From an uncultured Acidobacteriota bacterium (GTDB lineage Bacteria > Acidobacteriota > Vicinamibacteria > Vicinamibacterales > CAVVIG01): a stretch of 64,000 nucleotides of DNA. The stretch covers positions 135,934 through 199,933 of the forward strand of contig CAWIYH010000002.1 of the NCBI GenBank assembly GCA_963840225.1. Direction: 5' to 3'. Below the pieces are notes generated by a model. The model was not told where the DNA came from. It was given only the letters and a program-made list of their open reading frames with translations, and ran no database searches. Made by a program: the position numbers and the translations under genes. Positions 37,511 through 64,000 of this stretch are shown here, piece after piece (within the stretch, counting starts at the first letter, position 1; every line of letters begins with the position of its first letter).

Positions 37511-37516
37511 GGCCGC

Positions 37517-43876: not shown

Positions 43877-45070
43877 ATGAAGCCACCAACCGCCCGCGGC
43901 CGCATCGACACGGTGCTCGAGCCGGACTTCCTCACCTTCGGCGAGCCCCACATCCTCGAGGACGAAATCGACGAGGTCGTGGCCTGCCTGCGCTCGGGCT
44001 GGTGCGGCACCGGTCCGCGCGTCGCCCGGTTCGAGCGCGACTTCGCCGACTTCAAGGGCGGCGCGCACGTCGCCGCCGTCGCCTCGTGCTCCGCCGCCCT
44101 GCATCTGAGCCTGCTCGTGGCCGGCATCGAGCCGGGCGACGAGGTCATCACGTCGCCGTTGACCTTCTGCGGCGCGATCAACGCGATCATCCACGCCGGC
44201 GGACGCCCGGTCCTGGCCGACGTCGACCCGATCACGATGAACGTCGACCCGCGCGAGGTGGAAGCCCGCGTCACGCCGCGGACGCGCGCCATCCTGCCCG
44301 TGCACTTTGCCGGGCGCCCGTGCGATCTCGATGCCCTCGGCCGCATCGCGCGCCGGCACGGGCTCCGGCTCATCGAGGACTGCGCGCACGCGGTCGAAGC
44401 GCGCTACCGCGGCGCACCCGTCGGCACCCTCGGCGATTTCGGGTGCTTCAGCTTCTATGCGACCAAGAACGTGACCTCCGGCGAGGGCGGCATGGTGATC
44501 GCGCGCGACGAGCGCGACATCGCCCGGATCAGGACGCTCGCGCTGCACGGCCTGTCGAAGGACGCATGGAGCCGCGTCCGGGCGCGGCACGACACGCGCT
44601 ACCGGTGTGTGGAGATCGGCTTCAAGTACAACATGATCGACCTGCAGGCCGCGATCGGCATCCACCAGCTCCGCCGGGTCGAAGCGAGCTGGGAACGACG
44701 CCAGTCGATCTGGCAGCGATACCTGGGAGCGCTTCGGGATGTCCCCGTCGGCCTCCCCGCCGCGTCCGACCCCGACTGCCGGCACGCCCATCACCTGTTC
44801 ACGATCGCGATCGACGAGCGCAGGACCGGCGTGACGCGCGACCGGTTCCTCGACGCCATGACCGCGCTCGGCATCGGCGTCGGCGTGCACTACCCGAGCG
44901 TGCCCGAGCACCCGGCGTATCGAGAGCGTTTCGGATGGCGCCCCGAGGAGTGGCCGGTCGCCATGCGCATCGGCAGGGAGACCGCCAGCCTGCCGATCGG
45001 TCCGGCGCTCGACGATCGCGACGTCGACCGCGTCGTCGGCGCGGTCGACACCGCCCTGCGCGCGTCCTGA
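43877..45070 (+). CDS. DegT/DnrJ/EryC1/StrS-family PLP sugar aminotransferase
   Basis: ITSPLTFCGAINAI, ILPVHFAGRPCD, FSFYATKNVTSGEGG (PLP lysine). Confidence 0.92.
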   Translation: MKPPTARGRIDTVLEPDFLTFGEPHILEDEIDEVVACLRSGWCGTGPRVARFERDFADFKGGAHVAAVASCSAALHLSLLVAGIEPGDEVITSPLTFCGAINAIIHAGGRPVLADVDPITMNVDPREVEARVTPRTRAILPVHFAGRPCDLDALGRIARRHGLRLIEDCAHAVEARYRGAPVGTLGDFGCFSFYATKNVTSGEGGMVIARDERDIARIRTLALHGLSKDAWSRVRARHDTRYRCVEIGFKYNMIDLQAAIGIHQLRRVEASWERRQSIWQRYLGALRDVPVGLPAASDPDCRHAHHLFTIAIDERRTGVTRDRFLDAMTALGIGVGVHYPSVPEHPAYRERFGWRPEEWPVAMRIGRETASLPIGPALDDRDVDRVVGAVDTALRAS

Positions 45071-46038
45071 GCGGGCGCCGGCGGAGCGGCGAGGTGGTAG
45101 AGGTTCTGCAGCGACCATCGGTCCAGCCGATCCTCGACCCCGAAGACCGGCTTCACGCATCTCAGCTCGAAGAAATCGACCGGAAAGACGTAGTCGTCCC
45201 AGTTCTCGATCCGGGCGATCCCCGTCAACTCCTGGAACCGATTCGAGATCGCCAGGTCCTCGAAGCCGTCGAGCGGAAGGTCGACCGTCTTCAGGAGCGA
45301 AAGGACGAATCCCTTCCGGCGGACCACGTCGAGCACCGCGTTCAGGTCGCCGATCTCGTAGCAGTAGGCGCTGTTGATTCGGCGGATCTCGCGATCGATT
45401 GCGCCGCGATGCTCGGGCCGCGGGGGAACGCGCGCGAACAGGTCCTTGATGTACAGGCAGCCTCCGGGCCTGAGGACGTCCCAGCAGGCGTCGACGAGCC
45501 GGCTCTTGTCGCGCGAGTGTCCGAACGACTCCAGGAAGTAGACGACGTCGTAGGCGCCGCTGGCGAAGTAGTCCGTCAGGCGGTGATAGTCGCCGCAGAC
45601 GACCCGCAGGCGCTCGTGCAGCCCCTCCACGTCGACTCTGCGCCGCGCCGCCTGGTACTGCGCATTCGAGATCGTGATGCCGTCCACCCTCACCTTCGCG
45701 CACCTGACGAAGTGCGCGGCCGGCGCCGCGGTGCCGCAACCGGCGTCCAGCGCCCGTTGTCCCGGCTCGAAGCCGATGCTTCGGATCTCGTAGTTCAGCA
45801 GGTCGACGACGTTCCGGGTCCGGAGCGCCTGGATGACCTCGCCGTACACCTCCATGAACTGGTCGTGGTGGCGATCGTAGAAGCGGCCGACGCTGGCGGC
45901 GTGGCGGTCGTCATACGGCGCGGCGGGGGCGGGCGTCGCCTCGCGGCGCGAGACATTCCTCTTCTTCCACGCCGCGAGCCGCAGCGCGATTTCCGCCTTG
46001 ATGTGCCCCGGCGTGTAGGTGTCCAGGAATCGTCGCAT
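44890..46038 (-). CDS. class I SAM-dependent methyltransferase (CMAS/sterol-MT-like)
   Basis: ALDAGCGTAAPAAHF, VVYFLESFGHS, LRPGGCLYIKD. The 3' tail overlaps the DegT gene by 181 nt. Confidence 0.82.
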   Translation of the reverse strand: MRRFLDTYTPGHIKAEIALRLAAWKKRNVSRREATPAPAAPYDDRHAASVGRFYDRHHDQFMEVYGEVIQALRTRNVVDLLNYEIRSIGFEPGQRALDAGCGTAAPAAHFVRCAKVRVDGITISNAQYQAARRRVDVEGLHERLRVVCGDYHRLTDYFASGAYDVVYFLESFGHSRDKSRLVDACWDVLRPGGCLYIKDLFARVPPRPEHRGAIDREIRRINSAYCYEIGDLNAVLDVVRRKGFVLSLLKTVDLPLDGFEDLAISNRFQELTGIARIENWDDYVFPVDFFELRCVKPVFGVEDRLDRWSLQNLYHLAAPPAPAQDARRAVSTAPTTRSTSRSSSAGPIGRLAVSLPMRMATGHSSGRHPKRSRYAGCSGTLG

Positions 46039-46042
46039 GCGG

Positions 46043-47929
46043 CTACGGCCTCGTCAGACGGTATCGGATCTCCCGCACGATGTTGGCCGGCGTGTACACC
46101 TTCCACAGCGGACGGCCGTCGGCCGGACGAGGCTTGGGCCGGCCCGCCGCCGGTGTCGTCCCCGCGGCTCCCTCGATCGCGAGCGCGGCCACCCGGCTCC
46201 CGAGCGCGGCGTCTTCCCGATTGCCCGCGGCCCTGATGCGCGCCACGAGGTCCGACGTGTCGTACTGCCGGGATCGGACCGCGAACAGCCCGATGCAGTC
46301 GAGCCCGCGCGGTTTGTCCCCTCTCTGGTACAGCGCCGACAGCCGGGCGTTGTTGTAGTGGACGAAGAACTCGGGGGTCACCTCATATCCCTCGATCGCC
46401 GGCCGCGGCTGCCCGGGCAGCAGGTAGTAGTGCCTGAGGCGCGCGTCGCGATGCGTGACGCCGATGCCGAACGCGATCCTGATGCGGTCGGTGCCGTTCG
46501 GCGGCGACGCGTGCAGCGTCCGGTTGTTGAAGACGACGGCCTGACCGGCGCGCAGGTCCACCAGCTGCATGTACGGAAAGATGTCGCGCAGCTGGTCCTT
46601 GAACGGGGGCGCGTACTGCGGAGAGGGTGACGGCCGGACGTGATCGTACAGGAGGTGGCTTCCCTTGAGCAGGGCCAGCGCGCCGTTCTCCACGTTCACG
46701 TCGACGAGCGGACACCACATGGTCGCCGACCAGAATCGCGATTCGTCGACGAAGGTCCAGTCCTGGTGCGGCGGCACGACGCCCAGCGGGTTCGGGCTCT
46801 TCGTCACGAAGCTCGCGGTGAAGATCTGATGATCCGTCAGATGGCGCTCGACGCTCGGGCCCACCTCGTCGACCAGCCTCTCCGAGACGGCGCGCACGAA
46901 CCGGGAGCTCTCGTTGTCCAGGCTCACCTGAAAGCCGTTCTGCGGGACGGCGGCATTCGAGAGGCCGTCATGGAACGCCCGCAGACGATCGACCGTCCCC
47001 TGGTCGATCAGATCCAGGACGACGAAGCCGCTGGCTTCGAACTGGTGCTGAAGCGCCGAATCTCTGAACAGCTGCATCGTCGGGCACCCGCCGCCGCGCT
47101 CGCCGTCGTGCTGGCGGATCCGGGCCTCCAGTGACTGGTCGGTGACCGCAACATGGCTGTAGGGGCGTCGATTCAGCCGGCGGGTCCCCTGCGGCACCAG
47201 CCCCCTGGCCAGCCGGTCGATGTGCGTGAGGTAGAACTCCGGGCTGGCCTCGTAGACGTCGACCTCCGTGTCGCTGTGCTTGTGGAAGTATACGAGGGGC
47301 GTCTCTGGTTCCGTGATCCGGGCCGTCACCACGACGCGATCCCGCGGGCCGCTGTTCGCGTGGCTTCCGTGAAACAGCGCGTCCGAATAGACGATCGCCT
47401 CGCCCGCCCTCAGCGGCACGTCGATCACGTGGTCGTGGAGCTCCACCGGCAGCAGATACCGGTTCGAGGGATAGCTTCCCGACCGGAGAATCGACGCAAA
47501 CCAGCGATGACTGCCCGGGAGCACGAAGAGGGCACCGCTGGTGACCGAGACGTCCTCCAGCGGACACCACAGGAACATCGTCTGGCGGCGCTCTTCGTCC
47601 ACGACGCTCCAGTCCTGATGGAGCGGCAGGACGGAGGAATCCACGTGCGACTTGACCATGAAGGTGCCGCCATAGATCGTCGCCGGCAGGAAGCGACCCG
47701 CCGCGGCCTTCTCGACCTCCTGCCGGATGGCGTCGTTGATCGCACGGTTCACGTCATACGGATTGTGGCGGCTGCTCTCGTAGAGGCCGGAGACCGCGCT
47801 TCTGTCGACGTGCCGCACGTACAGCGCCATGAGCGCGTCGACCTGCGGGCAAGACAGGAGGGGCACGACGAGGTACCCGTCCCGATCGAAGCGTTCTTGC
47901 GCCGAAGGATCGCGCAGGAGGGGCTTCAT
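46043..47929 (-). CDS. tandem di-domain PhyH-type Fe(II)/2-oxoglutarate dioxygenase
   Basis: Two complete PhyH units: LPLHQDWSVVDE...LFHGSHAN and VPPHQDWTFVDE...TLHASPPN. Confidence 0.85.
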   Translation of the reverse strand: MKPLLRDPSAQERFDRDGYLVVPLLSCPQVDALMALYVRHVDRSAVSGLYESSRHNPYDVNRAINDAIRQEVEKAAAGRFLPATIYGGTFMVKSHVDSSVLPLHQDWSVVDEERRQTMFLWCPLEDVSVTSGALFVLPGSHRWFASILRSGSYPSNRYLLPVELHDHVIDVPLRAGEAIVYSDALFHGSHANSGPRDRVVVTARITEPETPLVYFHKHSDTEVDVYEASPEFYLTHIDRLARGLVPQGTRRLNRRPYSHVAVTDQSLEARIRQHDGERGGGCPTMQLFRDSALQHQFEASGFVVLDLIDQGTVDRLRAFHDGLSNAAVPQNGFQVSLDNESSRFVRAVSERLVDEVGPSVERHLTDHQIFTASFVTKSPNPLGVVPPHQDWTFVDESRFWSATMWCPLVDVNVENGALALLKGSHLLYDHVRPSPSPQYAPPFKDQLRDIFPYMQLVDLRAGQAVVFNNRTLHASPPNGTDRIRIAFGIGVTHRDARLRHYYLLPGQPRPAIEGYEVTPEFFVHYNNARLSALYQRGDKPRGLDCIGLFAVRSRQYDTSDLVARIRAAGNREDAALGSRVAALAIEGAAGTTPAAGRPKPRPADGRPLWKVYTPANIVREIRYRLTRP

Positions 47930-47932
47930 CGC

Positions 47933-49789
47933 TCAGCGCCTGAAGAGGGCATTCCACGCGCGGCTCAGTGCCGCGCCTGCCACCGCGGGGTCCCTGCGTC
48001 GAAGCCGGCCGGCCGGCGGCATCAGGCGCCGCCCGTTCTTCTTCAGGCCCGATCGCTCGCAGAGCCGACGGATTTCGTCGGCGGAGAACGGGATGAACTC
48101 GTCCTCGAAGACCGCCTCGACAGTGCAGTCTTCGGGCATCTGCGCAGCGTCGAAAGTCGTCTTGAGCGAGGCGACGGTGTTCCGCTCGAAGAACGACGGG
48201 TCGACCTTGAGCTTGGCGATCGTGCGGCGGGCGTCCTGCACGCCCGCGGGCACGAGGAAGTAATGACAGAGGTCGGCGTCACGCGGCGTCATGCCGATGG
48301 CCACCGCCAGCCTCGGCGCGGTCGTCAGGTTGGGCGGGGCGCCGTGGATGGTGCGGTTGTCGAAGACCACCGCCTGCCCGGCCTCGAGCGGCACGAACGC
48401 CAGGTACTGGTACAGAACCGCCTCGTGGCCCTGCGCGCACGTCCGGAAGTCGGGCGACGGCGAGCCGATCGGTTTGTCGAAGAACTCGTGGCTGCCGCGC
48501 ACGAAGCCGAGGCAGCCGTTGGCCTCGTCCACATCGACGAGCGCGACCCACACGGTCATCGAGCGGTACCCGGGAGCGTCGACGAACGTCCAGTCCTGGT
48601 GCGGGGAGGTGTAGCTGTCGGCTCCCGGCGCCTTGACCAGGAAGCTGCCCAGGTGCGGCTTGCAGTCCGCGAAGTGCTCGCCGAGCCTCGGCATCAGGAC
48701 GCCCGACAGGCGCTCGATGAGCGCGCGCTTGCGCGCGAGGTCCTTCTCCTCCAAACCGATGTACATACCGTAGGCGCTGTTCTCGACCACGCCGCCGGTG
48801 GACTCGACGAACAGCTCCGTCAGGCGGCGCACCTCGTCGCGCCCGAGAAGGGAGAGCGTGACGAAGCCGTTCTCCTCCATCGAGCGCTGGACGGCTGGGT
48901 CGAGAAAGACCCGCCGCGATTCGCGTTGCCGGCGGGCCGATGCGTGCTGCACGGCGAGCCCGGCGAGCGCCCGGGTCACTTCGTCCTTTGTCGGAAACGG
49001 GATGAGGTCCTGCTCGTGATCCACTGCGCGGCGGTCGAGCCGAGCGTCCCAGAGATTGTTCTCGAGCACGAAGGCCTTGTCGATGCGGTGGGCCTTCACC
49101 CGTCCCGTGCCCTGATCGAAGACGCAGTGGATCGCGGGCGCCTCGCGCGGCTTGAGGACCGACTGTACCGCCACGCGCACCTCGCCGGTGCGGTTGGGCG
49201 GCGAATAGTGAATCAGCTTGTGGTCGAAGATCGCGGCCTGACCCCTCCTGAGCGGAATCCGCCGCGCGTACCGCTTGAGCATGTCGTTGTATTCGGTGAG
49301 CGCCTTGGGCAGGTTCGGACCACGCTGCGTCCTGAAGACCTCGTGGCTGCCGGCGATCGCGCAGAGCCCGCCGTTGGTCATGTCCGTGTCGACCAGGGGG
49401 CACCACAGATTGAAGGCCGTATGGCGGTTTTCGTCGACGAAGTTGAAGTCCTGGTGGGCCTCGATCTGGCCGTCGCCAGGAAACTTGATCATGAAGTTGG
49501 AGTAGAAGACCTCGTAATCGGCCAGCAGGTCGTCGACGCGAGGCGCGACGCAACCGGAAATCAGCGCGTCGACCTCGTGTTTGTGCGCCGTGTCCCGGTC
49601 GAAAACGGAGATGTAGTACGGCAGGTCCCGGGCATAGCCGACCACCTCCCGTTTCGTGCGGAACGCCCCCGCGTAGAACGACCACAGCCCGGCGATCTCG
49701 TCGTCGCGCAGCAGATCGACGACGATGTAGCCATTCTCCCTGAACTGCCGCTCGTGGCCGTCGTCCCTGAAGATCCGGCGCATAGCCAT
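47933..49789 (-). CDS. tandem di-domain PhyH-type Fe(II)/2-oxoglutarate dioxygenase (paralog of 46043-47929)
   Basis: IEAHQDFNFVDE...LIHYSPPN and SPHQDWTFVDA...TIHGAPPN. Start set at ATG 49789 (MAMRRIFRDDGHERQFRENGYIVV). Confidence 0.85.
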   Translation of the reverse strand: MAMRRIFRDDGHERQFRENGYIVVDLLRDDEIAGLWSFYAGAFRTKREVVGYARDLPYYISVFDRDTAHKHEVDALISGCVAPRVDDLLADYEVFYSNFMIKFPGDGQIEAHQDFNFVDENRHTAFNLWCPLVDTDMTNGGLCAIAGSHEVFRTQRGPNLPKALTEYNDMLKRYARRIPLRRGQAAIFDHKLIHYSPPNRTGEVRVAVQSVLKPREAPAIHCVFDQGTGRVKAHRIDKAFVLENNLWDARLDRRAVDHEQDLIPFPTKDEVTRALAGLAVQHASARRQRESRRVFLDPAVQRSMEENGFVTLSLLGRDEVRRLTELFVESTGGVVENSAYGMYIGLEEKDLARKRALIERLSGVLMPRLGEHFADCKPHLGSFLVKAPGADSYTSPHQDWTFVDAPGYRSMTVWVALVDVDEANGCLGFVRGSHEFFDKPIGSPSPDFRTCAQGHEAVLYQYLAFVPLEAGQAVVFDNRTIHGAPPNLTTAPRLAVAIGMTPRDADLCHYFLVPAGVQDARRTIAKLKVDPSFFERNTVASLKTTFDAAQMPEDCTVEAVFEDEFIPFSADEIRRLCERSGLKKNGRRLMPPAGRLRRRDPAVAGAALSRAWNALFRR

Positions 49790-53113: not shown

Positions 53114-53160
53114 GAGCTTACTTGCGTCGTGCGGGCGCGTCCTGTAGATTACGCGCGCCG

Positions 53161-54003: not shown

Positions 54004-54010
54004 CCGACGT

Positions 54011-55345: not shown

Positions 55346-56106
55346 GTCACGCCCGCAGGATACGGCTTCCGGATGGGCGCGCCGCGCTCCATCTGGACCA
55401 GAAACTCCCTGGTCACCTCCAGGACGTCGAACCTCGTCGGCCGCGCGCCGTTCCACACGTAGACGAGCGGCCGGACGCCTGTGGGCAGCAGGATCGCGAC
55501 AAGCGCCGGGCGTTGGACGGTCGACCGGTTCTCTCCCGAGCCGTGAAAGAGGCGGGACTCGTACGCGAGCAGCGACCCGGCCGCCATCGGAACCGCCGTC
55601 GTGAAGTCCTTCCTCAGCACGTCCATCACGCGGCCGAACACCGGCGGGTACTCGTTCACCGCGTAGGGACTGTCGACCAGGGTGTAGCTGCCCTTCACCA
55701 CCTGGAGGCATCCGTTGGTCTCGTCCACATCGATCAACGGACACCAGAGATGGACGGCGGTGTGTCGGGCGGCGTCGGCGAAGGAATAGTCGCGGTGGAG
55801 GGGAAGGGCGCCCTGCGTGGTGTTGGGCCGCTTGGTCACGAACACGGCGAAGCACAACTCGTGGCGCGGGAAGAGGGCCGACAGGGGCGCGCTCAGGATC
55901 GAGGCGATGCCGTCGGAGACGCGGCGCCGATGGTCGGCGTCGCGGCTGAAGACCGTCGCATAGAAATCGGCCGGCGGACTGCCGGCCAGCGTCGCGTGCA
56001 GCTCGACGAGCCGGCCGACCTCCTGCTCGCCCAGAAAGGGCAGGACGACGTAGCCGTCCCGGCGGAACGTGTCCTGGGTGGTGCGGTCGTCAAACACCTG
56101 GTGCAT
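55273..56106 (-). CDS. PhyH-type Fe(II)/2-oxoglutarate dioxygenase (single domain)
   Basis: FRRDGYVVLPF, LPLHRDYSFAD, WCPLIDVDETNGCLQVVKGS, LFHGSGEN. Confidence 0.85.
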   Translation of the reverse strand: MHQVFDDRTTQDTFRRDGYVVLPFLGEQEVGRLVELHATLAGSPPADFYATVFSRDADHRRRVSDGIASILSAPLSALFPRHELCFAVFVTKRPNTTQGALPLHRDYSFADAARHTAVHLWCPLIDVDETNGCLQVVKGSYTLVDSPYAVNEYPPVFGRVMDVLRKDFTTAVPMAAGSLLAYESRLFHGSGENRSTVQRPALVAILLPTGVRPLVYVWNGARPTRFDVLEVTREFLVQMERGAPIRKPYPAGVTYLTSVDRPVDPLGPEDLVALAGW

Positions 56107-56113
56107 GCGAGGG

Positions 56114-58171: not shown

Positions 58172-58334
58172 GTCAATCCCCTCGAACACGAGACGACGAT
58201 CTCGATGCGGCGATGGGCGGGACGGGGTCGGCGCAGTCTACCACCGCCCAGTCGATCCCGCATGTCGTCCTTGACAAGACCGCCCAACGGTGCCAAAAGA
58301 TCATCCCCACGCCGGAACGCTCAGGTGTCGCCAC

Positions 58335-58586
58335 ATGAACCGAGACCTCCTCGACATCGGGACGTTTCTGCGGAACTTCGAGGGCGAGTTCGACGGCGGC
58401 ATCCCCGGCGGACCGCAGCCCCTGACGCGGTTGCGGGACCTGCCGGACTGGACGTCGCTCCAGGCGCTGATCGTGGTTGCGGGCTTCGAGCGCGACTACG
58501 GCGTCACGATCACGGCTGATGAGCTTGGCCGCGCCGACACGCTCCAGGACCTGTTCGACGCCGTGCTCCGGCGAGTCGGCCCCTGA
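58335..58586 (+). CDS. acyl carrier protein-like protein
   Basis: Four-helix ACP pattern with LPDWTSLQALIVVAGFERDYGVTITADEL. The stop overlaps the KASIII ATG (TGATG). Confidence 0.65.
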   Translation: MNRDLLDIGTFLRNFEGEFDGGIPGGPQPLTRLRDLPDWTSLQALIVVAGFERDYGVTITADELGRADTLQDLFDAVLRRVGP

Positions 58587-59656
58587 TGCCCGCCTTCTCG
58601 GTCCCGCATCTGCGTCTCTCGGCGGTGTGCGCCGCCCTGCCGACACAGGAGGTCTCAAACGCCGCCGATCCCGCCGGTCGATCCCCGAGCCGTGACTTCG
58701 TCCGCACCGTCGGCATCAACACCCGGCGGGTCGCCCCGCCGGAGGTCTGCGCCTCGGATCTGTGCGTGAGGGCGGCCCGCGAGATCCTCGACCGATCGGG
58801 CGTCGATCCGGGAGCGATCGGCGCGCTGGTCTTCGTGACGCAGACCCCCGATTTTCCCCTGCCCGGCAACAGCGTGCTGGCCCAGCGGCGGCTCGATCTG
58901 CGGCCGTCCACGTATCTGCTCGATCTCAACCAGGGCTGCGCCGGCTACGTGTACGGCCTCTCGTCGCTCGCCGCGCTGATGGCGGCGACCGGCATCGACA
59001 AGGGCCTGCTGCTGGTTGGCGACACGATCACGCGGCTGCTGTCGTCGAACGACAGCAGCACCGTGCCCCTCTTCTCGGATGCCGGCTCGGCAACCCTCGT
59101 CGAGCGGTCGCCGGGCGCTCCGGCGATGTACTTCAACCTCGGAAGCGACGGTGCGGGCGCCGACGTGATCCAGGTGCGGGGCGGCGGCGCGCGGCAGCCG
59201 TTCGGCCCGGGGAGTCTCGTCCCCGACGAGGCCGGCGGCGGGCGGGTGCGCGCGCCGATCCACCTGTCGATGCGCGGCATCGACGTGCTGCACTACGTGC
59301 TCAAATATGTCGAGCCGAGCATCAGGGAGCTGCTCTCGGCGGCGCATGCGGACGTGCACACGCCCGACTACTACGTCTTTCACCAGGCCAACCGGATCCT
59401 GAACGCCTCGCTTCGACGGCAGCTCGGGATTCCCGAGGACAAGGCGCCCGAGACGCTGTTCGACTACGGCAACACGAGCTGCGCGAGCATCCCGGTCACG
59501 ATCTGCCGCCGGCTCGGCGAGACGCTGGCGAGCGGCCGGAAGACGCTGCTCCTGTCGGGTTTCGGCGCCGGCTTCTCCTGGGGCAGCGCCCTCTTCAGCG
59601 GCGACTCCATCTTGTGCCCCGAGCTCGTCGAGGTCGACGGGGTCCGTGACGCCTGA
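58586..59656 (+). CDS. FabH-like 3-oxoacyl-ACP synthase III
   Basis: Cys-His-Asn triad contexts NQGCAGYVYG, FHQANRIL, YGNTSCASIP. Confidence 0.9.
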   Translation: MPAFSVPHLRLSAVCAALPTQEVSNAADPAGRSPSRDFVRTVGINTRRVAPPEVCASDLCVRAAREILDRSGVDPGAIGALVFVTQTPDFPLPGNSVLAQRRLDLRPSTYLLDLNQGCAGYVYGLSSLAALMAATGIDKGLLLVGDTITRLLSSNDSSTVPLFSDAGSATLVERSPGAPAMYFNLGSDGAGADVIQVRGGGARQPFGPGSLVPDEAGGGRVRAPIHLSMRGIDVLHYVLKYVEPSIRELLSAAHADVHTPDYYVFHQANRILNASLRRQLGIPEDKAPETLFDYGNTSCASIPVTICRRLGETLASGRKTLLLSGFGAGFSWGSALFSGDSILCPELVEVDGVRDA

Positions 59657-60569
59657 ACCCGAGGTGTCGGTCGTCGTGCCCGTCTTCAACGGCGCGGCGA
59701 CCCTCCGCGTGCTGGACGCCGCGATCCGCGACGTCATCGCGTCGCTGAACCTTCGCGCCGAAGTGGTATTCGTCGACGACGGCAGCACCGACGACTCGTG
59801 GCCGGTCATCCTGGAGCTCAAGGCGCGGCACGGCGACGCGCTGCGCGGATTCCGTCTGGCGCGCAACTCGGGCCAGCAGGCGGCCACCTACTGCGGCCTG
59901 CTCGAGGCGCGCGGTCGGTGGGTGGTCACGATTGACGACGACCTCCAGCCGCACCCGCGCGAGATCCGCAAGCTCTGGGAGCACGCGCAATCGGCCTGCC
60001 GGGACGTGGTCTACGGCGTCTACGCCAGGGCACGTCACCCGCTGGCGCACCGCATCGGCGCGCGCGTGTTCCGGATGCTGCTGAGACGCGTCGCGCCGCG
60101 CTTTCCGGACGGGTCGTCGTTCCGGCTGATTCGCGGCGAGGTCGTGCGGTCGATGCCGCGGCACCTCGGCCCGTGGGTCTTCGTCGACGCCGTCCTGGCG
60201 TGGCAGACCGCCGACATCGGCTCGGTCGTCGTCGAGCACGGCGGTCGCGGGTCGGGCCGATCGGGATACACGCTTCCGGCGCTCGCGGCGGTCGTCTCGA
60301 CGCTGCTGTTCACGCACAGCACCGTGCCGCTGCGCATCATGACGGGGATCGGCCTGCTCTCGGCGGTCGGGTCGTTCGGGCTCGGCGTCTATTTCCTCAT
60401 CCAGAAGCTGACGGTCGGCGCGCAGATCGGCTTTTCCGCGCTGATCGTGACGATCTCCTTCTCCTCGGGCCTCATCCTTCTGAGCCTGGGGATCCTGGGC
60501 GAATACATCTCGCGCATCCACACCATGGTGTCGGGCGAGCCTGCGTTCGCGATCAAGACGACGGCCTGA
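59646..60569 (+). CDS. GT2 polyprenyl-phosphate glycosyltransferase (ArnC/GtrB/DPM1-like)
   Basis: VSVVVPVFNGAATL, VFVDDGSTDDS, TIDDDLQ, and two C-terminal TM helices. Confidence 0.9.
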   Translation: MTPEPEVSVVVPVFNGAATLRVLDAAIRDVIASLNLRAEVVFVDDGSTDDSWPVILELKARHGDALRGFRLARNSGQQAATYCGLLEARGRWVVTIDDDLQPHPREIRKLWEHAQSACRDVVYGVYARARHPLAHRIGARVFRMLLRRVAPRFPDGSSFRLIRGEVVRSMPRHLGPWVFVDAVLAWQTADIGSVVVEHGGRGSGRSGYTLPALAAVVSTLLFTHSTVPLRIMTGIGLLSAVGSFGLGVYFLIQKLTVGAQIGFSALIVTISFSSGLILLSLGILGEYISRIHTMVSGEPAFAIKTTA

Positions 60570-61192
60570 TGCGGTTCCTGCGGTTCGGCGTCACGCTCGA
60601 GCGGCTCGAAGCGCGGCACCTCGAGCTCGTTCGCGCGTGGCGCAACAGCGAATGGGTGCGCCCGTACATGCGGTATCGGGACCTCGTCGGCCCCGACGAT
60701 CAGGTGCGGTGGTTCGACCGGCTCGATCCGCGCCGCGACTGGTATTTCTGCGCCGACGTCGGCGGGGCGCCGTTCGGGCTCTTCCACGTCAAGGGCGCCG
60801 ACCGGGAGTCCGGAGAGGCGGGCGGCTTCGTCGGTCGTCCCGACTTCATCGGACGGCCGGAGCCGGCGCAGGCGACGCTCGCCCTGATGGACTTTGCGTT
60901 CCTGCTGCTGGAGCTCGGATCGCTCGAAGCGCAGTATCGCGCCGCGCTGACCCGGGTCGTCCGCTTCAACGGCCAGCTCGGGTACGTGGTCTTCCGGGAG
61001 GAGCCGGACGGATTCGTCCGGGCGCGGGTGTCCTCAGGCACGTACTTCGCAACCGCAGACCCGTACCGGCGGGCCGCCATGTCGCTCTGCGGCACGGGCG
61101 CGACCGTCTCCGAGCCCGATTCGTGGCTGGCGCGACGGATCGCCGAGGCGGCCGCGCGGTTCCCGCCGGGCTTCGAGCTGCAACTGACCTGA
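60569..61192 (+). CDS. GNAT-family N-acetyltransferase (PseH/RimL-like, tentative)
   Basis: LERLEARHLELVRAWRNSEWVRPYM...DDQVRWFDRL...FGLFHVKG is the pattern of aminosugar N-acetyltransferases. The ATG overlaps the upstream stop (TGATG). Confidence 0.65.
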   Translation: MRFLRFGVTLERLEARHLELVRAWRNSEWVRPYMRYRDLVGPDDQVRWFDRLDPRRDWYFCADVGGAPFGLFHVKGADRESGEAGGFVGRPDFIGRPEPAQATLALMDFAFLLLELGSLEAQYRAALTRVVRFNGQLGYVVFREEPDGFVRARVSSGTYFATADPYRRAAMSLCGTGATVSEPDSWLARRIAEAAARFPPGFELQLT

Positions 61193-61220
61193 GCTGTGAC
61201 CTCGCCGCAGGCGCGACCTG

Positions 61221-62108
61221 TCACCAGGCGCTCGGTCGCGGTCGCCAGCGCCGCGGCTCGAGCATGAGGGCCAGCCGGATCGGAATGGCTGGATGCCGGC
61301 CCCAGCGCCACATGCGGTACGCGACGTTCCGGTCGCCCCAGGGGAACCTGCGGCTGTCCATCTCCGGCCGCATCTGCCGGATCGTCTTCCAGAACTCGCC
61401 CCTGTTGTGGGCCAGGTACTCCGGATCGCGCTTCTTGAAGATCTCCATGCCGACGTGATAGGTGAGGGCGTCGCGTTCGAACAGGGCGAATCGCCGCGCC
61501 CAGCAGAACAGGTTCTGCGAGAAGAGCATCTCGACGAACGGAATGCCGATGCACACGTCACCGAGCCGGAACCTCGGGTAGAGCGATCGATCGAAGACGA
61601 AGCAGTCGAAGCCCGGATGCGGCTCGCCCTTCAGCGCCCAGATGGCCGGCAGATCCTCGACATGCCGGTACCCTGCGGGAACGCGCCGGCGGTTGATGAT
61701 GAACGCATCCAGGCCGTCCCTGATTCGAGCGACGACGGCCTCGTAGAACGAGGGGTGCAGGATGATGTCGACGTTCGTGTAGATGAGATGGGAGGCCGAC
61801 GTCGACTCGTGCAGCCGGTCCATCAGGTCGCGCAGCAGCGGCAGCTTCCGCCGGACCGAAAAGCCGTGGAGGTCGGCCACCGATCGCTCGAGATCGCGCG
61901 TCCGGCTGAAATAGGGCGGGATGACGTCGTGGTCCTCGCGAAACTGCGCTGTGAGCAGATCGACGCGCGCGACGTCCCGGGCGGCGGCCGCCGCGTGTCG
62001 CATCGACTCGAACGTCAGCGGCTCGGTCTCCGCCAGCGCGGCGTCGACGGGGGCGCGCACCGGGTTGATCAGGTGAGCCAGGTGGATTCGTTCGGCCATC
62101 AGCGTCAT
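61221..62108 (-). CDS. hypothetical protein (possibly GT-A-like)
   Basis: Coherent composition and high GC3. IYTNVDIILHPSFY and DAFIINRRR hint at a nucleotide-sugar transferase fold. No firm family assignment. Confidence 0.55.
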   Translation of the reverse strand: MTLMAERIHLAHLINPVRAPVDAALAETEPLTFESMRHAAAAARDVARVDLLTAQFREDHDVIPPYFSRTRDLERSVADLHGFSVRRKLPLLRDLMDRLHESTSASHLIYTNVDIILHPSFYEAVVARIRDGLDAFIINRRRVPAGYRHVEDLPAIWALKGEPHPGFDCFVFDRSLYPRFRLGDVCIGIPFVEMLFSQNLFCWARRFALFERDALTYHVGMEIFKKRDPEYLAHNRGEFWKTIRQMRPEMDSRRFPWGDRNVAYRMWRWGRHPAIPIRLALMLEPRRWRPRPSAW

Positions 62109-62225
62109 GCCCGGGCGCGTCTCGAATTCCGCGGCTGCCGGTTGGGCCCTGTGCTATGCTCCGCGCTTCACGGCTGCGGAAGTGACGACGGACGGACGTC
62201 GGGCGCGGCCCGACCGAGGCAGCTC

Positions 62226-63227
62226 ATGTCGCACGGCATCCCGACCGCTCCGGCGATTGCGGCCGCCTCCCGATCGGCGTCGCCACGGGCCGGCTCTGTC
62301 GATCGCACGCGCGACGCCTTGAGAGCGCGGCTGGCCGACGCGCCTGCAGGCGACATCCTCTGCGAATACTTCGAACGGGGCAAGATGCTGCGCGCGCAGC
62401 TGGTCTTCGCCTCGTCGGCGGCGGTCGGCGGCGACCCGGACGAGGTCGCGGTGGGCGCCGAGGCGATCGAGCTTCTGCACGCCGCTTCGCTGTTCCACGA
62501 CGACATCGTCGACGGCGCCGCGGAGCGTCGCGGCCTCGCGTCGCTGCACGAGCGGCTCGGCGTGGGGCGCGCGCTCGTCGTCGGCGACGACCTGCTCCTC
62601 CGCGCGTTCGCCGCGCTCGGCGACGCCCGCGCGTGCCATCCCCCGACGCGGGTGCTGGAAGCCACCGACGCGCTCAATCAGCTCGCCCGCGCGTGCTGTC
62701 GCGGTCAGTTCGCCGAGCTGTGCGCCGACCGGTGGATCTCCGAGGAACAATACCTGGCGATCGTGCGCGGCAAGACGGCGGCGCCGTTCATCGCGGCCGG
62801 TCTGCTCGGGGTGGTGCTCGGCGGCGGCACCTCCGCGCATGCGGGCCGCATCAGGGTCTACGCCGAGGAGATCGGCGTCGCGTTCCAGATCGGCGACGAC
62901 CTGCTCGACCTGATCGGCGAGCCGGGAATGCTCGGCAAGCCCGTCGGCAATTCGGTGGCGCAGGGACGGCCCATGCTGCCGCTCATCTACCTGCGGCAGG
63001 TCGACCCCGACCTTGCCGCCGGCTGGCAGGGGCGCGTCGATCGAGGCCGCCCTCAAGCAGGCGCCGCGCTGCTCGACGAACGAGGCGTGCTCACGCGGGT
63101 GCGGAACGCGCAGCGCGCGCACGTCGACGCGGCGCTTGCCGCAATCAGCCAGTTCCCGGTGCCTGCCGGCGTCCACGAGCTGCGCGCGCTCGCGGCTCGC
63201 GCCACCTCGCCGGTCGGCGTCACCTAG
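62226..63227 (+). CDS. trans-polyprenyl diphosphate synthase
   Basis: FARM LLHAASLFHDDIVD and SARM FQIGDDLLD, with GKTAAPF between them. Confidence 0.9.
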   Translation: MSHGIPTAPAIAAASRSASPRAGSVDRTRDALRARLADAPAGDILCEYFERGKMLRAQLVFASSAAVGGDPDEVAVGAEAIELLHAASLFHDDIVDGAAERRGLASLHERLGVGRALVVGDDLLLRAFAALGDARACHPPTRVLEATDALNQLARACCRGQFAELCADRWISEEQYLAIVRGKTAAPFIAAGLLGVVLGGGTSAHAGRIRVYAEEIGVAFQIGDDLLDLIGEPGMLGKPVGNSVAQGRPMLPLIYLRQVDPDLAAGWQGRVDRGRPQAGAALLDERGVLTRVRNAQRAHVDAALAAISQFPVPAGVHELRALAARATSPVGVT

Positions 63228-64000
63228 ACGACCGCGTCGGCGCGGCGGCTTTCTGCGCGACTCCGCTGCCGGCCTCGGTACTCGAACAGATCCCCGAACA
63301 GCGCCCGCACCTCGGCCACGACGCCCGGTCGTTCGTGAATGACGACGCGCCTGCCCGAGCGCGCGAGCTCGACGGCCAGCGCGAGCCTCTGTGATTCGAC
63401 CAGGATGTCCGTGCCCGGCTTGTAGCTGAGCAAGTCGACGTGAATCGGCTCGTCTTCCGGATGGGTCTTGCGCAGTTCTTCCAGCTGAAAGGCTCGATGC
63501 CGCTCGTTCATGGCATCGGTCGCTTCCGCCTGGAGCAGGCGGCACCCGCGCTCCGCGGCGAACAGGTTCAACGCCCGGTTGTCCCGCGGGAGGCAGGGCC
63601 CGCCGTAGCCGAATCCGTATCGGAGGAAGGCCGTGCCGACACGCGGGTCGGCGCCGACGGCGGCGAGCACCCGCTCCGGATCGGCGTCCGCCCGCACGGC
63701 GAGATCGCCGATCGCGTTGGCGAAGGCGATCTTCATCGTCAGGAAGGCGTTCGTCGCGAGCTTGGCGATCTCGGCGGCGAGACGCGGCATGCGGTGAACC
63801 GACGGTTGGTTCCGGCAGGTTCGCCGGTAGATCTGCTCGATCCGGGTGCCGGCCGCGGCGTCCGCCTCGCCGATGAGCACCTGCGCCGGGCACTGCTGGT
63901 CGCGCATGATGCTGCCCTGCGCGACGAAACCCGGGCTGTAGCTCAGTCGGTAGTGTCCGGCGTCGGCCTCTGGCGCCCGGCCATCGCAGTAGCCGGGCAT
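63224..64000 (-). CDS. UDP-glucose/GDP-mannose dehydrogenase-family enzyme (N-terminus off window)
   Basis: AEIAKLATNAFLTMKIAFANAIGDL, GFGYGGPCLPRD (catalytic Cys), and a C-terminal UDP-binding domain. Confidence 0.85.
   Translation of the reverse strand: MPGYCDGRAPEADAGHYRLSYSPGFVAQGSIMRDQQCPAQVLIGEADAAAGTRIEQIYRRTCRNQPSVHRMPRLAAEIAKLATNAFLTMKIAFANAIGDLAVRADADPERVLAAVGADPRVGTAFLRYGFGYGGPCLPRDNRALNLFAAERGCRLLQAEATDAMNERHRAFQLEELRKTHPEDEPIHVDLLSYKPGTDILVESQRLALAVELARSGRRVVIHERPGVVAEVRALFGDLFEYRGRQRSRAESRRADAVV

What the first reader, a model, noticed from the sequence alone, without database searches (positions are those of the whole stretch)
43877..64000. Large glycoconjugate locus with an unusually heavy oxidative and radical tailoring complement
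Within 20 kb the locus holds an aminosugar aminotransferase, a SAM-MT, five PhyH dioxygenase domains, a B12-radical SAM enzyme and ACP+KASIII. It also holds a PseH-like GNAT, an ArnC-like GT2, a UbiA-GT4 fusion, an unknown GT-A-like protein and a transglutaminase-like secreted protein. Wzm/Wzt, a dedicated polyprenyl synthase and a UDP-sugar dehydrogenase complete the set. The backbone logic resembles ABC-transporter-dependent O-antigen or Arn-type pathways. I know of no characterised pathway that combines these with multiple PhyH hydroxylases and a B12-rSAM enzyme. The product (an exported glycan or glycolipid carrying an N-acylated, hydroxylated and methylated aminosugar?) cannot be deduced.
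Basis: partly seen in the sequence, partly recalled or inferred. Interest (0 to 1): 0.6.

Follow-up and report, generated by a model that had tools for sequence, protein, structure and literature searches.

The report
Oxygenase-rich envelope glycoconjugate gene cluster
This soil-type acidobacterium carries a 31-kb gene cluster, also found in Bacteroidota and a few Proteobacteria, that most likely builds, heavily oxidises, methylates and exports a lipid-anchored surface sugar molecule whose structure nobody has described.

Summary

The locus is larger than reported: about window 35,615 to 66,467, which runs 2.5 kb past the window end. Upstream it includes a TPR-bearing GT-C glycosyltransferase, two secreted beta-propellers and two lipoproteins. 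Downstream it includes a second GT-A enzyme and a GDP-mannose-3,5-epimerase-like enzyme.

It is one co-inherited unit, not a chance mosaic. The same genes travel together in about ten other Acidobacteriota genomes, two Saprospiraceae-type genomes, many Bacteroidota and a few Proteobacteria. It was not found in 40 close relatives or in 400 sampled genomes of the phylum, so here it is a sporadic accessory island.

The Arn reading fails: there is no ArnA-type decarboxylase, deformylase or ArnE/F.

Best reading:
- a lipid-anchored glycan is primed by UbiA-GT4;
- two GT-A enzymes extend it;
- five PhyH domains, a CMAS-type methyltransferase and a B12-radical SAM enzyme tailor it in the cytoplasm;
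- Wzm/Wzt export it;
- the GT-C decorates it outside with an N-acylated aminosugar carried on polyprenyl phosphate.

The product is unknown and I found no published counterpart. Earlier AI notes of this scan (read, only partly checked here) describe what appear to be Bacteroidota versions on other DNA.

The parts
35615..37510 (-). GT-C glycosyltransferase with a C-terminal TPR domain (631 aa). Predicted user of the polyprenyl-P-sugar donor.
   Evidence: About 9 TM helices and a YAWDD loop motif. TPR Pfam hits at residues 456-614. The homologue in L003 carries a weak PMT_2 hit and sits in one operon with GT-A, ACP, KASIII and GNAT. A homologue lies within 10 kb of the GT-A295 marker in 15 of 41 loci.
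37517..39899 (-). Secreted BNR/Sortilin-like beta-propeller 1, with the reading frame broken near 37,892.
   Evidence: Pfam Sortilin-Vps10 and BNR. About 82% identical to propeller 2, but the alignment changes frame at 37,891-37,893.
39928..40683 (-). Small lipoprotein 1 (about 250 aa, signal ending ...LTAFAC).
   Evidence: Sequence. Homologues lie next to the propeller or GT-C in L003-L006 and L011-L014. No Pfam hit.
40715..43060 (-). Secreted BNR/Sortilin-like beta-propeller 2 (781 aa, Sec signal peptide).
   Evidence: Pfam Sortilin-Vps10 at 49.5 bits. No PDB sequence match. Homologues at 51-66% identity in L003, L004, L006, L011-L013.
43087..43806 (-). Small lipoprotein 2 (about 239 aa, signal ending ...VAAFAC).
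   Evidence: Homologues at 42-58% identity in acidobacterial and Saprospiraceae-type loci.
43877..45070 (+). DegT/ArnB/PseC-family PLP sugar aminotransferase.
   Evidence: PF01041 at 395.5 bits. Best NCBIfam models are ArnB (350.8 bits against a cut-off of 631) and PseC (309.9 against 423.5), so there is no equivalog.
44890..46038 (-). CMAS-type SAM methyltransferase. The conserved part is about 320 aa. The last ~60 aa are an unmatched tail that overlaps the 3' end of DegT.
   Evidence: Pfam CMAS at 45 bits, also Methyltransf_11 and _25. 62% identical to the L005 homologue over residues 2-321 only. 40-52% identical across phyla. A natural fusion with a double PhyH exists (P0028).
46043..47929 (-). 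Double-domain PhyH Fe(II)/2OG dioxygenase A (628 aa).
   Evidence: PF05721 at 139 bits in 2 stretches. Both triads are intact. Nearest solved relatives are SnoK, SnoN, PHYHD1 and EvdO2, all weak.
47933..49789 (-). Double-domain PhyH Fe(II)/2OG dioxygenase B (618 aa).
   Evidence: PF05721 at 144 bits in 2 stretches. Both triads are intact. Weak TIGR01762 and TIGR04324 hits.
49969..52185 (+). UbiA-type membrane prenyltransferase domain fused to a GT4 glycosyltransferase. Predicted primer or initiating enzyme.
   Evidence: GT4 Pfam at 111 bits; UbiA at 31 bits against a gathering score of 34.2. The L086 homologue has a confident UbiA hit. Motifs are conserved across phyla. The GT4 domain is nearest to PimB'/PimA/BshA. 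The UbiA domain is nearest to archaeal prenyltransferases, ChlG and MenA, with no DPPRS hit.
52145..53113 (-). Secreted or lipoprotein of unknown function with an invariant Cys-His-Asp. Found in the acidobacterial version only.
   Evidence: No Pfam or NCBIfam hit. C113, H148 and D167 are invariant in 3 homologues.
53161..54003 (+). Wzm, ABC-2 permease.
   Evidence: PF01061 at 38.9 bits. 6-7 TM helices.
53975..55345 (+). Wzt, ABC ATPase with an unassigned ~200-aa C-terminal extension.
   Evidence: The nucleotide-binding domain scores 185 bits to Aquifex aeolicus Wzt. Residues 254-456 have no match.
55273..56106 (-). Single-domain PhyH dioxygenase, part of an accessory pair with the radical SAM enzyme.
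   Evidence: PF05721 at 77.8 bits. Orthologues at 65-66% identity only in L005 and L009, at the same position.
56114..58171 (-). Cobalamin-dependent (class B) radical SAM enzyme, KedN5-like. Probable C-methyltransferase.
   Evidence: B12-binding plus Radical_SAM Pfam. NF033712 at 177 bits against a cut-off of 700. CPFSCSFC motif.
58335..58586 (+). Small acyl carrier protein.
   Evidence: PP-binding at E = 0.004. Conserved position upstream of KASIII in all versions.
58586..59656 (+). KASIII (FabH-like) condensing enzyme or acyltransferase.
   Evidence: Pfam ACP_syn_III and its C-terminal domain. GCAGY, HQAN and GNTS catalytic residues; best PDB match 4efi at 203 bits.
59646..60569 (+). ArnC/GtrB-like GT2. 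Predicted polyprenyl-phosphate sugar synthase.
   Evidence: PF00535 at 89 bits. Best NCBIfam hits are ArnC (122.7 bits against 529) and PgfS. Two C-terminal TM helices.
60569..61192 (+). GNAT N-acyltransferase, distantly PseH-like.
   Evidence: TIGR03585 at 30.8 bits, below the cut-off. The L086 homologue has a confident Acetyltransf_3 hit.
61221..62108 (-). Divergent GT-A-fold glycosyltransferase (295 aa). The best-conserved marker of the ACP-KASIII-GT2-GNAT block.
   Evidence: No HMM or PDB sequence hit. AF2 pLDDT 91.7. Foldseek matches RmlT, TarP and TarS at probability 1.0. 289 relatives.
62226..63227 (+). trans-Polyprenyl diphosphate synthase. Part of the acidobacterial version only.
   Evidence: PF00348 at 152.9 bits. 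The first Asp-rich motif is DDIVD, with Ala and Ser at positions -5 and -4. Present in 8 of 9 acidobacterial loci and 0 of 32 others.
63224..64000 (-). NDP-sugar 6-dehydrogenase. The gene continues to 64,375 beyond the window.
   Evidence: TIGR03026 at 196.7 bits against a cut-off of 189.8 for the full 383-aa protein. Nearest solved structures are UDP-Glc dehydrogenase at 150 bits and GDP-Man dehydrogenase at 100 bits.

Best explanation
The locus (window about 35,615 to 66,467) is one horizontally mobile, uncharacterised pathway for a lipid-anchored envelope glycoconjugate.

Inferred steps:
1. At the inner face of the membrane, the UbiA-GT4 fusion makes a prenyl- or polyprenyl-linked primer and adds the first sugar.
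2. Two divergent GT-A enzymes (61221-62108, and 64372-65469 beyond the window) extend it. They draw on sugars supplied by the NDP-sugar dehydrogenase and the GDP-mannose-3,5-epimerase-like enzyme, so a uronic acid and an L-hexose are likely components.
3. The five cytoplasmic PhyH domains, the CMAS-type methyltransferase and, in this variant, the B12-radical SAM enzyme oxidise and methylate the intermediate.
4. Wzm/Wzt move it across the inner membrane.
5. In parallel, an aminosugar is made by DegT. The GNAT N-acylates it with a short acyl chain built on the dedicated ACP by KASIII. The ArnC-like GT2 loads it onto polyprenyl phosphate. Outside the membrane, the TPR-bearing GT-C adds it to the exported molecule.

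The secreted propellers, the lipoproteins and the Cys-His-Asp protein are lineage-specific periplasmic accessories.

What is shown: gene content, folds, catalytic motifs, predicted topology and conserved co-occurrence.
What is inferred: every substrate, the order of steps and the product.
For: Gene families and motifs.

Conserved co-occurrence:
- Nearly the whole set recurs in acidobacterial loci L003-L010, L013 and L014, and in Saprospiraceae-type loci L011 and L012.
- The order Wzm - PhyH(n) - MT - Wzt recurs in Bacteroidota and Gammaproteobacteria, flanked by ACP-KASIII-GT2-GNAT|GT-A and by UbiA-GT4/SDR.
- Starting from the GT-A295 marker, KASIII, GT2 and GNAT are present in 34-35 of 41 loci, the GT-C in 15 of 41 and the MT in 25 of 41.
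- By my hand tally of the printed contig accessions, about 44 of the 80 assemblies in that list also appear in the PhyH-based list.
- UbiA-GT4 lies 2-3 kb beyond the fetched range in two further genomes.
- Strong GT-C homologues occur in 5 of 5 Bacteroidota genomes tested. In three they appear to lie about 7-17 kb from the locus, if the tool's contig numbers match the accession suffixes.

Other support:
- In L003, lipoprotein, propeller, GT-C, GT-A, ACP, KASIII and GNAT share one strand.
- Both unknowns have GT-A folds.
- The Wzt nucleotide-binding domain is closest to an O-antigen Wzt.
- The PhyH and MT proteins have no signal peptide or TM segment.
- A natural MT + double-PhyH fusion exists (P0028).
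Against: - No initiating WecA/WbaP-type transferase, polymerase-like GT, flippase for the polyprenyl-P-sugar, O-antigen ligase or outer-membrane exporter is encoded in the locus.
- No enzyme that would make the keto-sugar substrate for DegT is in the locus. UXS/ArnA-like SDRs exist only elsewhere in the genome.
- The UbiA domain matches no solved structure or DPPRS model, so its reaction is unknown.
- DegT, the GT-C and the polyprenyl synthase are not seen within 10 kb in most Bacteroidota loci.
- The target of the oxygenases (sugar, acyl chain or prenyl chain) is not established.
Confidence: 0.55

Rival explanations
1. The product is an isoprenoid glycolipid, not a polysaccharide. The UbiA domain transfers the all-trans polyprenyl chain made by the dedicated synthase onto a small polar acceptor or sugar. 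GT4 and the GT-A enzymes build a short head group. The PhyH domains, the CMAS-type MT and the B12-radical SAM enzyme hydroxylate and methylate the isoprenoid tail. Wzm/Wzt flip the finished lipid.
For: - The UbiA domain's nearest models are prenyl-diphosphate-using prenyltransferases, not DPPRS.
- A trans-polyprenyl synthase is in 8 of 9 acidobacterial loci.
- The MT is of the olefin-methylating CMAS type.
- The GT4 domain is nearest to lipid- or small-molecule-acceptor GT4s: PimA, PimB' and BshA.
- Only three Leloir GTs are present and none looks like a polymerase.
- The radical SAM enzyme has weak hits to lipid methylases HpnR and TIGR04072.
Against: - No polyprenyl synthase lies in the 32 non-acidobacterial loci.
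- The nearest solved relatives of the PhyH domains modify sugars: SnoK, SnoN and EvdO2. There is also a weak hit to the 'sporadic carbohydrate cluster' oxygenase family.
- The Wzt nucleotide-binding domain is closest to polysaccharide exporters.
Confidence: 0.2
2. It is a protein O-glycosylation system. The TPR-bearing GT-C, which has the same domain layout as TMTC/PMT enzymes, glycosylates the co-encoded secreted propellers or lipoproteins. The rest of the locus makes the lipid-linked donor.
For: - The GT-C with a C-terminal TPR domain lies directly downstream of the lipoprotein and propeller genes.
- The same adjacency occurs in L003, L006, L013 and L014.
- TMTC-type enzymes are protein O-mannosyltransferases (PMC7801869, title and abstract).
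Against: - Propellers and lipoproteins are absent from the Bacteroidota and gammaproteobacterial versions, which still have the GT-C and all core blocks.
- L014 has the lipoprotein and GT-C without a propeller.
- A Wzm/Wzt exporter and three Leloir GTs are not needed for single-sugar protein glycosylation.
Confidence: 0.12
3. It is a chance mosaic: an ordinary variable O-antigen-type locus into which unrelated tailoring and lipid genes have drifted, with no common product.
For: - Gene order differs between genomes.
- The B12-rSAM/PhyH pair, the polyprenyl synthase, the propellers and the number of PhyH genes vary.
- An earlier AI note (e1-1177650) calls the oxygenase half hypervariable.
Against: The same families stay together across Acidobacteriota, Bacteroidota and Proteobacteria despite reshuffling. 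MT and double PhyH are even fused in one protein. The island is absent from 40 relatives and 400 sampled genomes of the phylum, yet arrives complete.
Confidence: 0.08
4. It makes a secreted oligosaccharide-type secondary metabolite, like an orthosomycin, tunicamycin or aminoglycoside, which is pumped out by the ABC-2 transporter.
For: - PhyH-family oxygenases tailor sugars in orthosomycins and nogalamycin (EvdO2, SnoK and SnoN hits).
- From my own knowledge: GNAT plus ACP N-acylation and an ABC-2 exporter occur in the tunicamycin cluster.
Against: - Membrane-bound UbiA, ArnC-like GT2 and GT-C enzymes point to lipid-linked intermediates and periplasmic transfer.
- There is no aglycone or cyclitol synthase.
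- The Wzt is of the O-antigen type.
Confidence: 0.05

Closest known systems
ABC-transporter-dependent O-polysaccharide assembly (Wzm/Wzt; E. coli O8/O9a, Klebsiella, Aquifex aeolicus Wzm-Wzt)
   Same: - Adjacent Wzm permease and Wzt ATPase, with the nucleotide-binding domain at 185 bits to A. aeolicus Wzt.
- Cytoplasmic Leloir GTs.
- A methyltransferase next to wzt and a C-terminal extension on Wzt. These recall chain-terminator recognition, which I cite from my own knowledge of WbdD and the Wzt carbohydrate-binding module.
   Different: - No WecA/WbaP initiator. A UbiA-GT4 fusion stands in that position.
- There are 5 (up to 14 elsewhere) PhyH dioxygenase domains between wzm and wzt, plus a B12-radical SAM enzyme.
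- The Wzt C-terminal domain matches no known carbohydrate-binding module.
- No ligase or outer-membrane step is in the locus.
Three-component extracytoplasmic glycosylation (Gtr-type; Citrobacter youngae O1/O2 PPPRS-MATE-GT136, Kelly et al. 2024, PMC11127046)
   Same: - A polyprenyl-phosphate sugar synthase plus a GT-C that modifies an already exported glycan.
- A UbiA-family enzyme sits in a Gram-negative glycan locus.
- That paper explicitly predicts further examples in unknown glycans.
   Different: - Here the donor synthase is an ArnC/GtrB-like GT2, not the UbiA enzyme.
- The UbiA domain is fused to GT4, has no phosphatase partner and shows no similarity to DPPRS.
- No MATE, GtrA or SMR flippase is present.
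- The GT-C carries TPR repeats rather than a carbohydrate-binding module.
Arn pathway (lipid A modification with L-Ara4N)
   Same: Members of the same families are present: a Ugd-family dehydrogenase, an ArnB-family aminotransferase, an ArnC-like GT2 and a GT-C.
   Different: - No ArnA decarboxylase/formyltransferase. The neighbouring SDR is GDP-mannose-3,5-epimerase-like.
- No ArnD and no ArnE/F.
- All matches are far below equivalog cut-offs.
- N-acylation is by GNAT, ACP and KASIII instead of formylation.
Mycobacterial arabinogalactan assembly
   Same: A Wzm/Wzt-type exporter for a lipid-linked glycan, a UbiA-family enzyme, an ArnC-like polyprenyl-P-aminosugar synthase (PpgS) and GT-C decoration outside the membrane. 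The NCBIfam models for galactan Wzm/Wzt and PpgS are hit weakly. The pathway logic is from my own knowledge and PMC11127046.
   Different: There is no orthology: no DprE1/E2, GlfT or Emb/Aft enzymes. The host is Gram-negative. The oxygenase set has no counterpart.
PhyH-family sugar-tailoring oxygenases of natural products (SnoK/SnoN of nogalamycin, EvdO2 of everninomicin)
   Same: They are the nearest solved relatives of the PhyH domains, and the HxD...H iron site is the same.
   Different: - Similarity is very weak (24-36 bits).
- Here the domains are tandem-fused, multiplied and embedded in an envelope-glycan export operon.
- The substrates are unknown.

Membership tests
ABC-transporter-dependent glycan export (Wzm/Wzt) | Adjacent ABC-2 permease and ATPase of the Wzt/TagH type | tested here: met
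   PF01061 and PF00005. The Wzt nucleotide-binding domain scores 185 bits to A. aeolicus Wzt and 147 bits to TagH.
ABC-transporter-dependent glycan export (Wzm/Wzt) | Polyprenyl-phosphate sugar-1-phosphate transferase (WecA/WbaP type) that starts the chain | tested here: not met
   No such family appears among the Pfam or NCBIfam hits of any locus protein. It could be encoded elsewhere in the genome; I did not search for it.
ABC-transporter-dependent glycan export (Wzm/Wzt) | Chain terminator plus a Wzt C-terminal recognition domain | tested here: inconclusive
   Wzt has an extension of about 200 aa with no match. A methyltransferase lies beside wzt in all versions. No binding or capping has been shown.
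Arn (L-Ara4N) pathway | ArnA: UDP-GlcA oxidative decarboxylase plus N-formyltransferase | tested here: not met
   The only SDR in the locus scores 289 bits to GDP-mannose 3,5-epimerase and 86 bits to UXS. The ArnA model scores 19.9 bits. UXS-like genes lie on other contigs.
Arn (L-Ara4N) pathway | ArnB and ArnC equivalogs | tested here: not met
   ArnB model: 350.8 bits against a cut-off of 631. ArnC model: 122.7 bits against 529. These are family-level relatives only.
Arn (L-Ara4N) pathway | ArnD deformylase, ArnE/F flippase and ArnT | tested here: not met
   There are no deformylase or SMR-type hits. The GT-C is a TPR-bearing type, with PMT_2 only weak in a homologue.
Three-component periplasmic glycosylation (polyprenyl-P-sugar synthase, flippase, GT-C) | Membrane-anchored GT2 of the GtrB/ArnC/DPM1 type | tested here: met
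   GT2 Pfam hit. Best NCBIfam models are ArnC, PgfS and PpgS. Two C-terminal TM helices. Activity was not tested.
Three-component periplasmic glycosylation (polyprenyl-P-sugar synthase, flippase, GT-C) | GT-C with multiple TM helices and an acidic motif in the first outer loop, genetically linked to the synthase | tested here: met
   About 9 TM helices and an invariant YAWDD motif. Found with the GT2 block in 15 of 41 loci and in one operon in L003.
Three-component periplasmic glycosylation (polyprenyl-P-sugar synthase, flippase, GT-C) | Dedicated small flippase (GtrA, SMR or MATE) | tested here: not met
   None was found among the called genes of the locus.
UbiA-type polyprenyl-phosphate phosphoribosyltransferase (DPPRS/PPPRS) | NDxxDxxxD loop motif in a membrane domain of about 9 TM helices | tested here: met
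   NDWFDRAAD at residue 82 and DRRND at residue 214. The motifs are invariant across phyla. They are shared by all UbiA enzymes, so they do not discriminate.
UbiA-type polyprenyl-phosphate phosphoribosyltransferase (DPPRS/PPPRS) | Sequence relation to DPPRS, and a partner phosphatase or epimerase | tested here: not met
   The profile finds no PDB chain (the library holds 8j8j) at E <= 10. NCBIfam hits are archaeal prenyltransferases, ChlG, MenA and DGGGPS only. No HAD phosphatase or DprE-like gene is present.
PhyH Fe(II)/2-oxoglutarate dioxygenases | Pfam PF05721 above the gathering score, and an HxD...H iron triad with a 2OG-binding Arg | tested here: met
   139, 144 and 78 bits against a gathering score of 22. 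All five domains keep the triad and the Arg. None has the halogenase HxA/G variant.
Class B (cobalamin-dependent) radical SAM methyltransferases | N-terminal B12-binding domain plus a CxxxCxxC radical SAM core | tested here: met
   PF02310 and PF04055. CPFSCSFC at residue 210. The KedN5 subfamily model scores 177 bits against a cut-off of 700, so this is not a member of that subfamily.

The most novel reading that the evidence does not exclude
The cluster family makes a new class of bacterial envelope lipid. A polyprenyl chain, made here by a dedicated trans-synthase, is attached by the UbiA domain to a sugar-bearing head group. It is then poly-hydroxylated and methylated along the isoprenoid tail by the PhyH, CMAS-type and B12-radical SAM enzymes. 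Finally Wzm/Wzt flip it. The result would be a hyper-oxidised isoprenoid glycolipid with no described counterpart.
Probability: 0.2. Interest if true: 0.85.

Novelty: new variant of a known kind. Interest (0 to 1): 0.6.

Why it matters
The cluster family occurs in at least 171 species-level genomes of Acidobacteriota, Bacteroidota and Proteobacteria. These are abundant soil, freshwater and wastewater bacteria, nearly all uncultured. Its product is probably a major surface molecule of these cells.

Three features have no characterised precedent:
- the density of Fe/2OG oxygenases inside an export operon;
- the UbiA-GT4 fusion in the initiator position;
- the ACP/KASIII/GNAT-fed donor for the GT-C.

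Solving the product would assign chemistry to several large families that currently have no assigned function. These are the double PhyH, two divergent GT-A families, TPR-bearing bacterial GT-C enzymes and the UbiA-GT4 fusion. It could also reveal a new type of glycan or lipid oxidation.

The acidobacterial version is the most compact (5 PhyH domains, about 25 genes). That makes it the most tractable for heterologous expression.

Tried and rejected
- A single-protein search of genome contigs with the double PhyH found nothing. An alignment-based search was needed.
- Profile searches of the PDB found nothing for the GT-A295 family, the GT-A366 family (noise only) or the UbiA domain. A single-sequence search for propeller 2 also found nothing.
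- The context look-up for the Thermomonas homologue P0109 failed.
- Rfam found no riboswitch or RNA in 34-64 kb.
- The left part of the window (the PKS module and others, 6-35 kb) does not co-occur with the cluster elsewhere, so it is not part of the locus.
- The right flank (YceI, DoxX, 3-dmu-9_3-mt) is unrelated.
- I rejected the Arn-pathway reading after the SDR proved to be GME-like.
- I rejected a halogenase reading for the PhyH-B N-domain (weak TIGR01762 hit), because the HxD triad is intact.
- Five literature searches found no description of such a cluster. They showed only that PhyH genes sit unexplained in Xanthomonas wzm/wzt LPS loci.

Full report
**Observation**

The window has about 69% G+C, so I called genes by third-position GC framing. 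I then scanned them against Pfam and NCBIfam.
- a DegT aminotransferase;
- a CMAS-type SAM methyltransferase;
- two proteins that each hold two PhyH domains, plus one single-domain PhyH;
- a UbiA-GT4 fusion;
- Wzm and Wzt;
- a B12-binding radical SAM enzyme (CPFSCSFC motif);
- a small ACP, and a KASIII with intact Cys-His-Asn;
- an ArnC-like GT2 with two C-terminal membrane helices;
- a distant PseH-like GNAT;
- a trans-type polyprenyl synthase;
- an NDP-sugar dehydrogenase that is cut by the window end.

All five PhyH domains keep the HxD...H iron triad and the 2OG-binding Arg.

The "unknown GT-A-like protein" (61221-62108) has no HMM or PDB sequence match. It folds with pLDDT 91.7 into a GT-A glycosyltransferase that resembles RmlT, TarP and TarS.

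The "transglutaminase-like" protein (52145-53113) has no family match. Its only support is an invariant Cys113/His148/Asp167 in three homologues, so that label stays unproven.

**True extent**

The window is C2:135934-199933 of a 6-Mb genome. I read on beyond the window end. The dehydrogenase ends at 64,375. It is followed on the same strand by two more genes.
- A 366-aa protein at 64,372-65,469. Its start overlaps the stop codon of the upstream SDR gene. It is a second GT-A-fold enzyme (pLDDT 79; Foldseek matches K4CP and ppGalNAc-T).
- An SDR at 65,466-66,467. It scores 289 bits to plant GDP-mannose 3,5-epimerase and only 86 bits to UDP-glucuronate decarboxylase.

Next come YceI, DoxX and other unrelated genes.

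Upstream, an operon on the minus strand holds lipoprotein 2, propeller 2, lipoprotein 1, propeller 1 and a 631-aa GT-C. The GT-C has about 9 membrane helices, a YAWDD loop motif and C-terminal TPR repeats (35,615-43,806).

Genes further left, including the PKS module, do not travel with the cluster elsewhere. The locus is therefore about 35,615 to 66,467, with about 25 genes.

**Is it one unit?**

Homologues of the double PhyH, with their neighbourhoods, show that it is.
- In about ten Acidobacteriota assemblies (labelled Bryobacterales, "Acidobacteriaceae" and similar) and in two Lewinellaceae/Saprospiraceae assemblies, nearly the whole gene set recurs at 45-75% identity. This includes the GT-C, propeller and lipoproteins. 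Gene order is reshuffled.
- In L003, the lipoprotein, propeller, GT-C, GT-A, ACP, KASIII, GNAT and polyprenyl synthase lie on one strand.
- In many Bacteroidota and a few Gammaproteobacteria there is a recurrent order: ACP-KASIII-GT2-GNAT | GT-A | Wzm - PhyH(n) - MT - Wzt - PhyH(n) - UbiA-GT4 - SDR.
- The number of PhyH domains per 20-kb window has a median of 4 in the acidobacterial type. It has a median of 7, and reaches 14, in the others.

I then started independently from the GT-A295 marker (289 relatives). Among 41 full-length loci, KASIII, GT2 and GNAT are present in 34-35, the GT-C in 15, the MT in 25 and Wzt in 22. By a hand tally of the contig accessions printed, about 44 of those 80 assemblies also appear in the PhyH-based list.

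Where a block seemed missing, it often lay just outside the fetched 10 kb.
- UbiA-GT4 lies 2-3 kb beyond the range in two genomes.
- Strong GT-C homologues occur in all 5 Bacteroidota genomes tested. In three they appear to lie 7-17 kb away, if the tool's contig numbers match the accession suffixes.
- GT-A295 lies 14-19 kb from the PhyH genes in four acidobacterial contigs (coordinates).

MT and double PhyH are fused in one natural protein (P0028).

It is not met.

**Host and mobility**

RpoB is 94% identical to that of a Vicinamibacterales MAG, so the genome is an acidobacterium of that order. The double PhyH was not found at E <= 1e-30 in 40 relatives of the same genus, family or order. It was also not found in 400 sampled genomes of the phylum.

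In a tree of the double PhyH, the window's protein groups (98/97) with two assemblies. One (L006) is labelled Acidobacteriaceae and the other (L003) is unlabelled. The group lies inside a fully supported clade that also holds the two Saprospiraceae-type sequences.

The cluster is thus a sporadic accessory island that has crossed class and phylum boundaries. The direction of transfer is not resolved.

**Mechanism**

The following points are established.
- The PhyH, MT and radical SAM proteins have no signal peptide or membrane segment, so they are predicted to be cytoplasmic.
- UbiA-GT4, Wzm, the GT2 and the GT-C are membrane proteins.
- The propellers, lipoproteins and the Cys-His-Asp protein carry export signals.
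- There are three Leloir GTs besides the ArnC-like GT2.
- The Wzt nucleotide-binding domain is closest to an O-antigen Wzt.

From these points I infer the following pathway.
1. A lipid-anchored glycan is primed by UbiA-GT4.
2. The two GT-A enzymes extend it. They use a uronic acid from the dehydrogenase, whose nearest solved relatives are UDP-Glc dehydrogenases. They also use an L-hexose from the epimerase-like SDR.
3. It is oxidised and methylated in the cytoplasm.
4. Wzm/Wzt export it.
5. The GT-C decorates it outside the membrane with an aminosugar. DegT aminates that sugar. The GNAT N-acylates it with an ACP-bound chain made by KASIII. The GT2 presents it on polyprenyl phosphate.

The last branch follows the logic of Gtr-type and "three-component" systems (Kelly et al. 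2024, PMC11127046).

Gaps in this model:
- no initiating phosphoglycosyltransferase;
- no small flippase;
- no enzyme in the locus that makes the keto-sugar for DegT (UXS-like genes exist only elsewhere);
- no ligase or outer-membrane step.

**The UbiA domain and the target of the oxygenases**

The UbiA motifs NDxxDxxxD and DxxND are invariant across phyla. However, the domain matches no solved structure. In NCBIfam it matches only archaeal prenyltransferases, chlorophyll synthase, MenA and DGGGPS-type models, not DPPR synthase.

Two further observations bear on this. A trans-polyprenyl synthase is present in 8 of 9 acidobacterial loci. Its small residues before the first Asp-rich motif suggest a product longer than C20. 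Together with the UbiA result, these keep open a more novel reading: a prenylated glycolipid whose isoprenoid tail is the substrate of the PhyH, CMAS-type MT and B12-rSAM enzymes.

Against that reading:
- the other phyla lack the synthase in the locus;
- the nearest, though weak, solved relatives of the PhyH domains modify sugars (SnoK, SnoN, EvdO2).

I cannot decide this with the tools at hand.

**Comparison with the known**

It works like ABC-transporter-dependent glycan assembly followed by GT-C decoration, with mycobacterial arabinogalactan as a loose analogue. It is not a member of the Arn pathway. ArnA, ArnD and ArnE/F are absent, and ArnB and ArnC are matched only far below their equivalog cut-offs.

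PhyH genes are known to sit, unexplained, in Xanthomonas wzm/wzt LPS loci. Five full-text searches found no description of this cluster type.

Earlier AI notes of this scan (e1-3612807, e1-1177650, e1-2366329, e1-3228893) describe what appear to be Bacteroidota versions on other DNA. They reached similar "uncharacterised" verdicts. My own synteny work agrees with them, and it adds the compact acidobacterial form and its GT-C, propeller and synthase additions.

**Verdict**

This is a real, conserved and mobile pathway of unknown product. It is a new variant of a known kind of system. Interest 0.6.

Noticed in passing
window 37,517-39,899 (frame change near 37,891-37,893): Propeller 1 is about 82% identical to propeller 2, but its reading frame shifts by one base after residue ~661. 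It is either a pseudogene or an assembly indel. I did not repair it.
   Followed up: partly
G000 contig C1, minus strand (rpoB): The rpoB open frame that holds the GRHGNKG motif is only 762 codons long, and its first ~60 residues do not read like RpoB. The assembly may therefore carry indel errors, which bears on the propeller 1 frameshift.
   Followed up: no
window 44,890-45,070: The methyltransferase ORF runs about 60 codons past the end of homology and overlaps the convergent DegT gene by 181 nt. This could be a lost stop codon, an indel or a real tail.
   Followed up: partly
L002:3535-4356 (window coordinates about 66,602-67,423, just beyond the locus): A YceI-like protein lies directly next to the cluster. 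From my own knowledge, this family binds polyisoprenoids. It may be coincidence.
   Followed up: no
L011 and L012 (Lewinellaceae and Saprospiraceae MAGs): These Bacteroidota carry the acidobacterial-type version of the cluster (about 55% identity, with propeller and lipoproteins). Their double PhyH nests inside the acidobacterial clade, which indicates cross-phylum transfer.
   Followed up: partly
L039, L085, L086 and other Bacteroidota loci: Up to 14 PhyH domains lie in one 20-kb stretch. Some also carry a sulfotransferase (L086) or a further radical SAM gene (L085).
   Followed up: partly
L009:4708-5676: The homologue of the Cys-His-Asp protein in this acidobacterial MAG contains an internal stop codon.
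   Followed up: no
protein P0028 (JGI metagenome, 949 aa): This is a natural fusion of the CMAS-type methyltransferase with the double PhyH protein. It argues that the two act on the same substrate.
   Followed up: no
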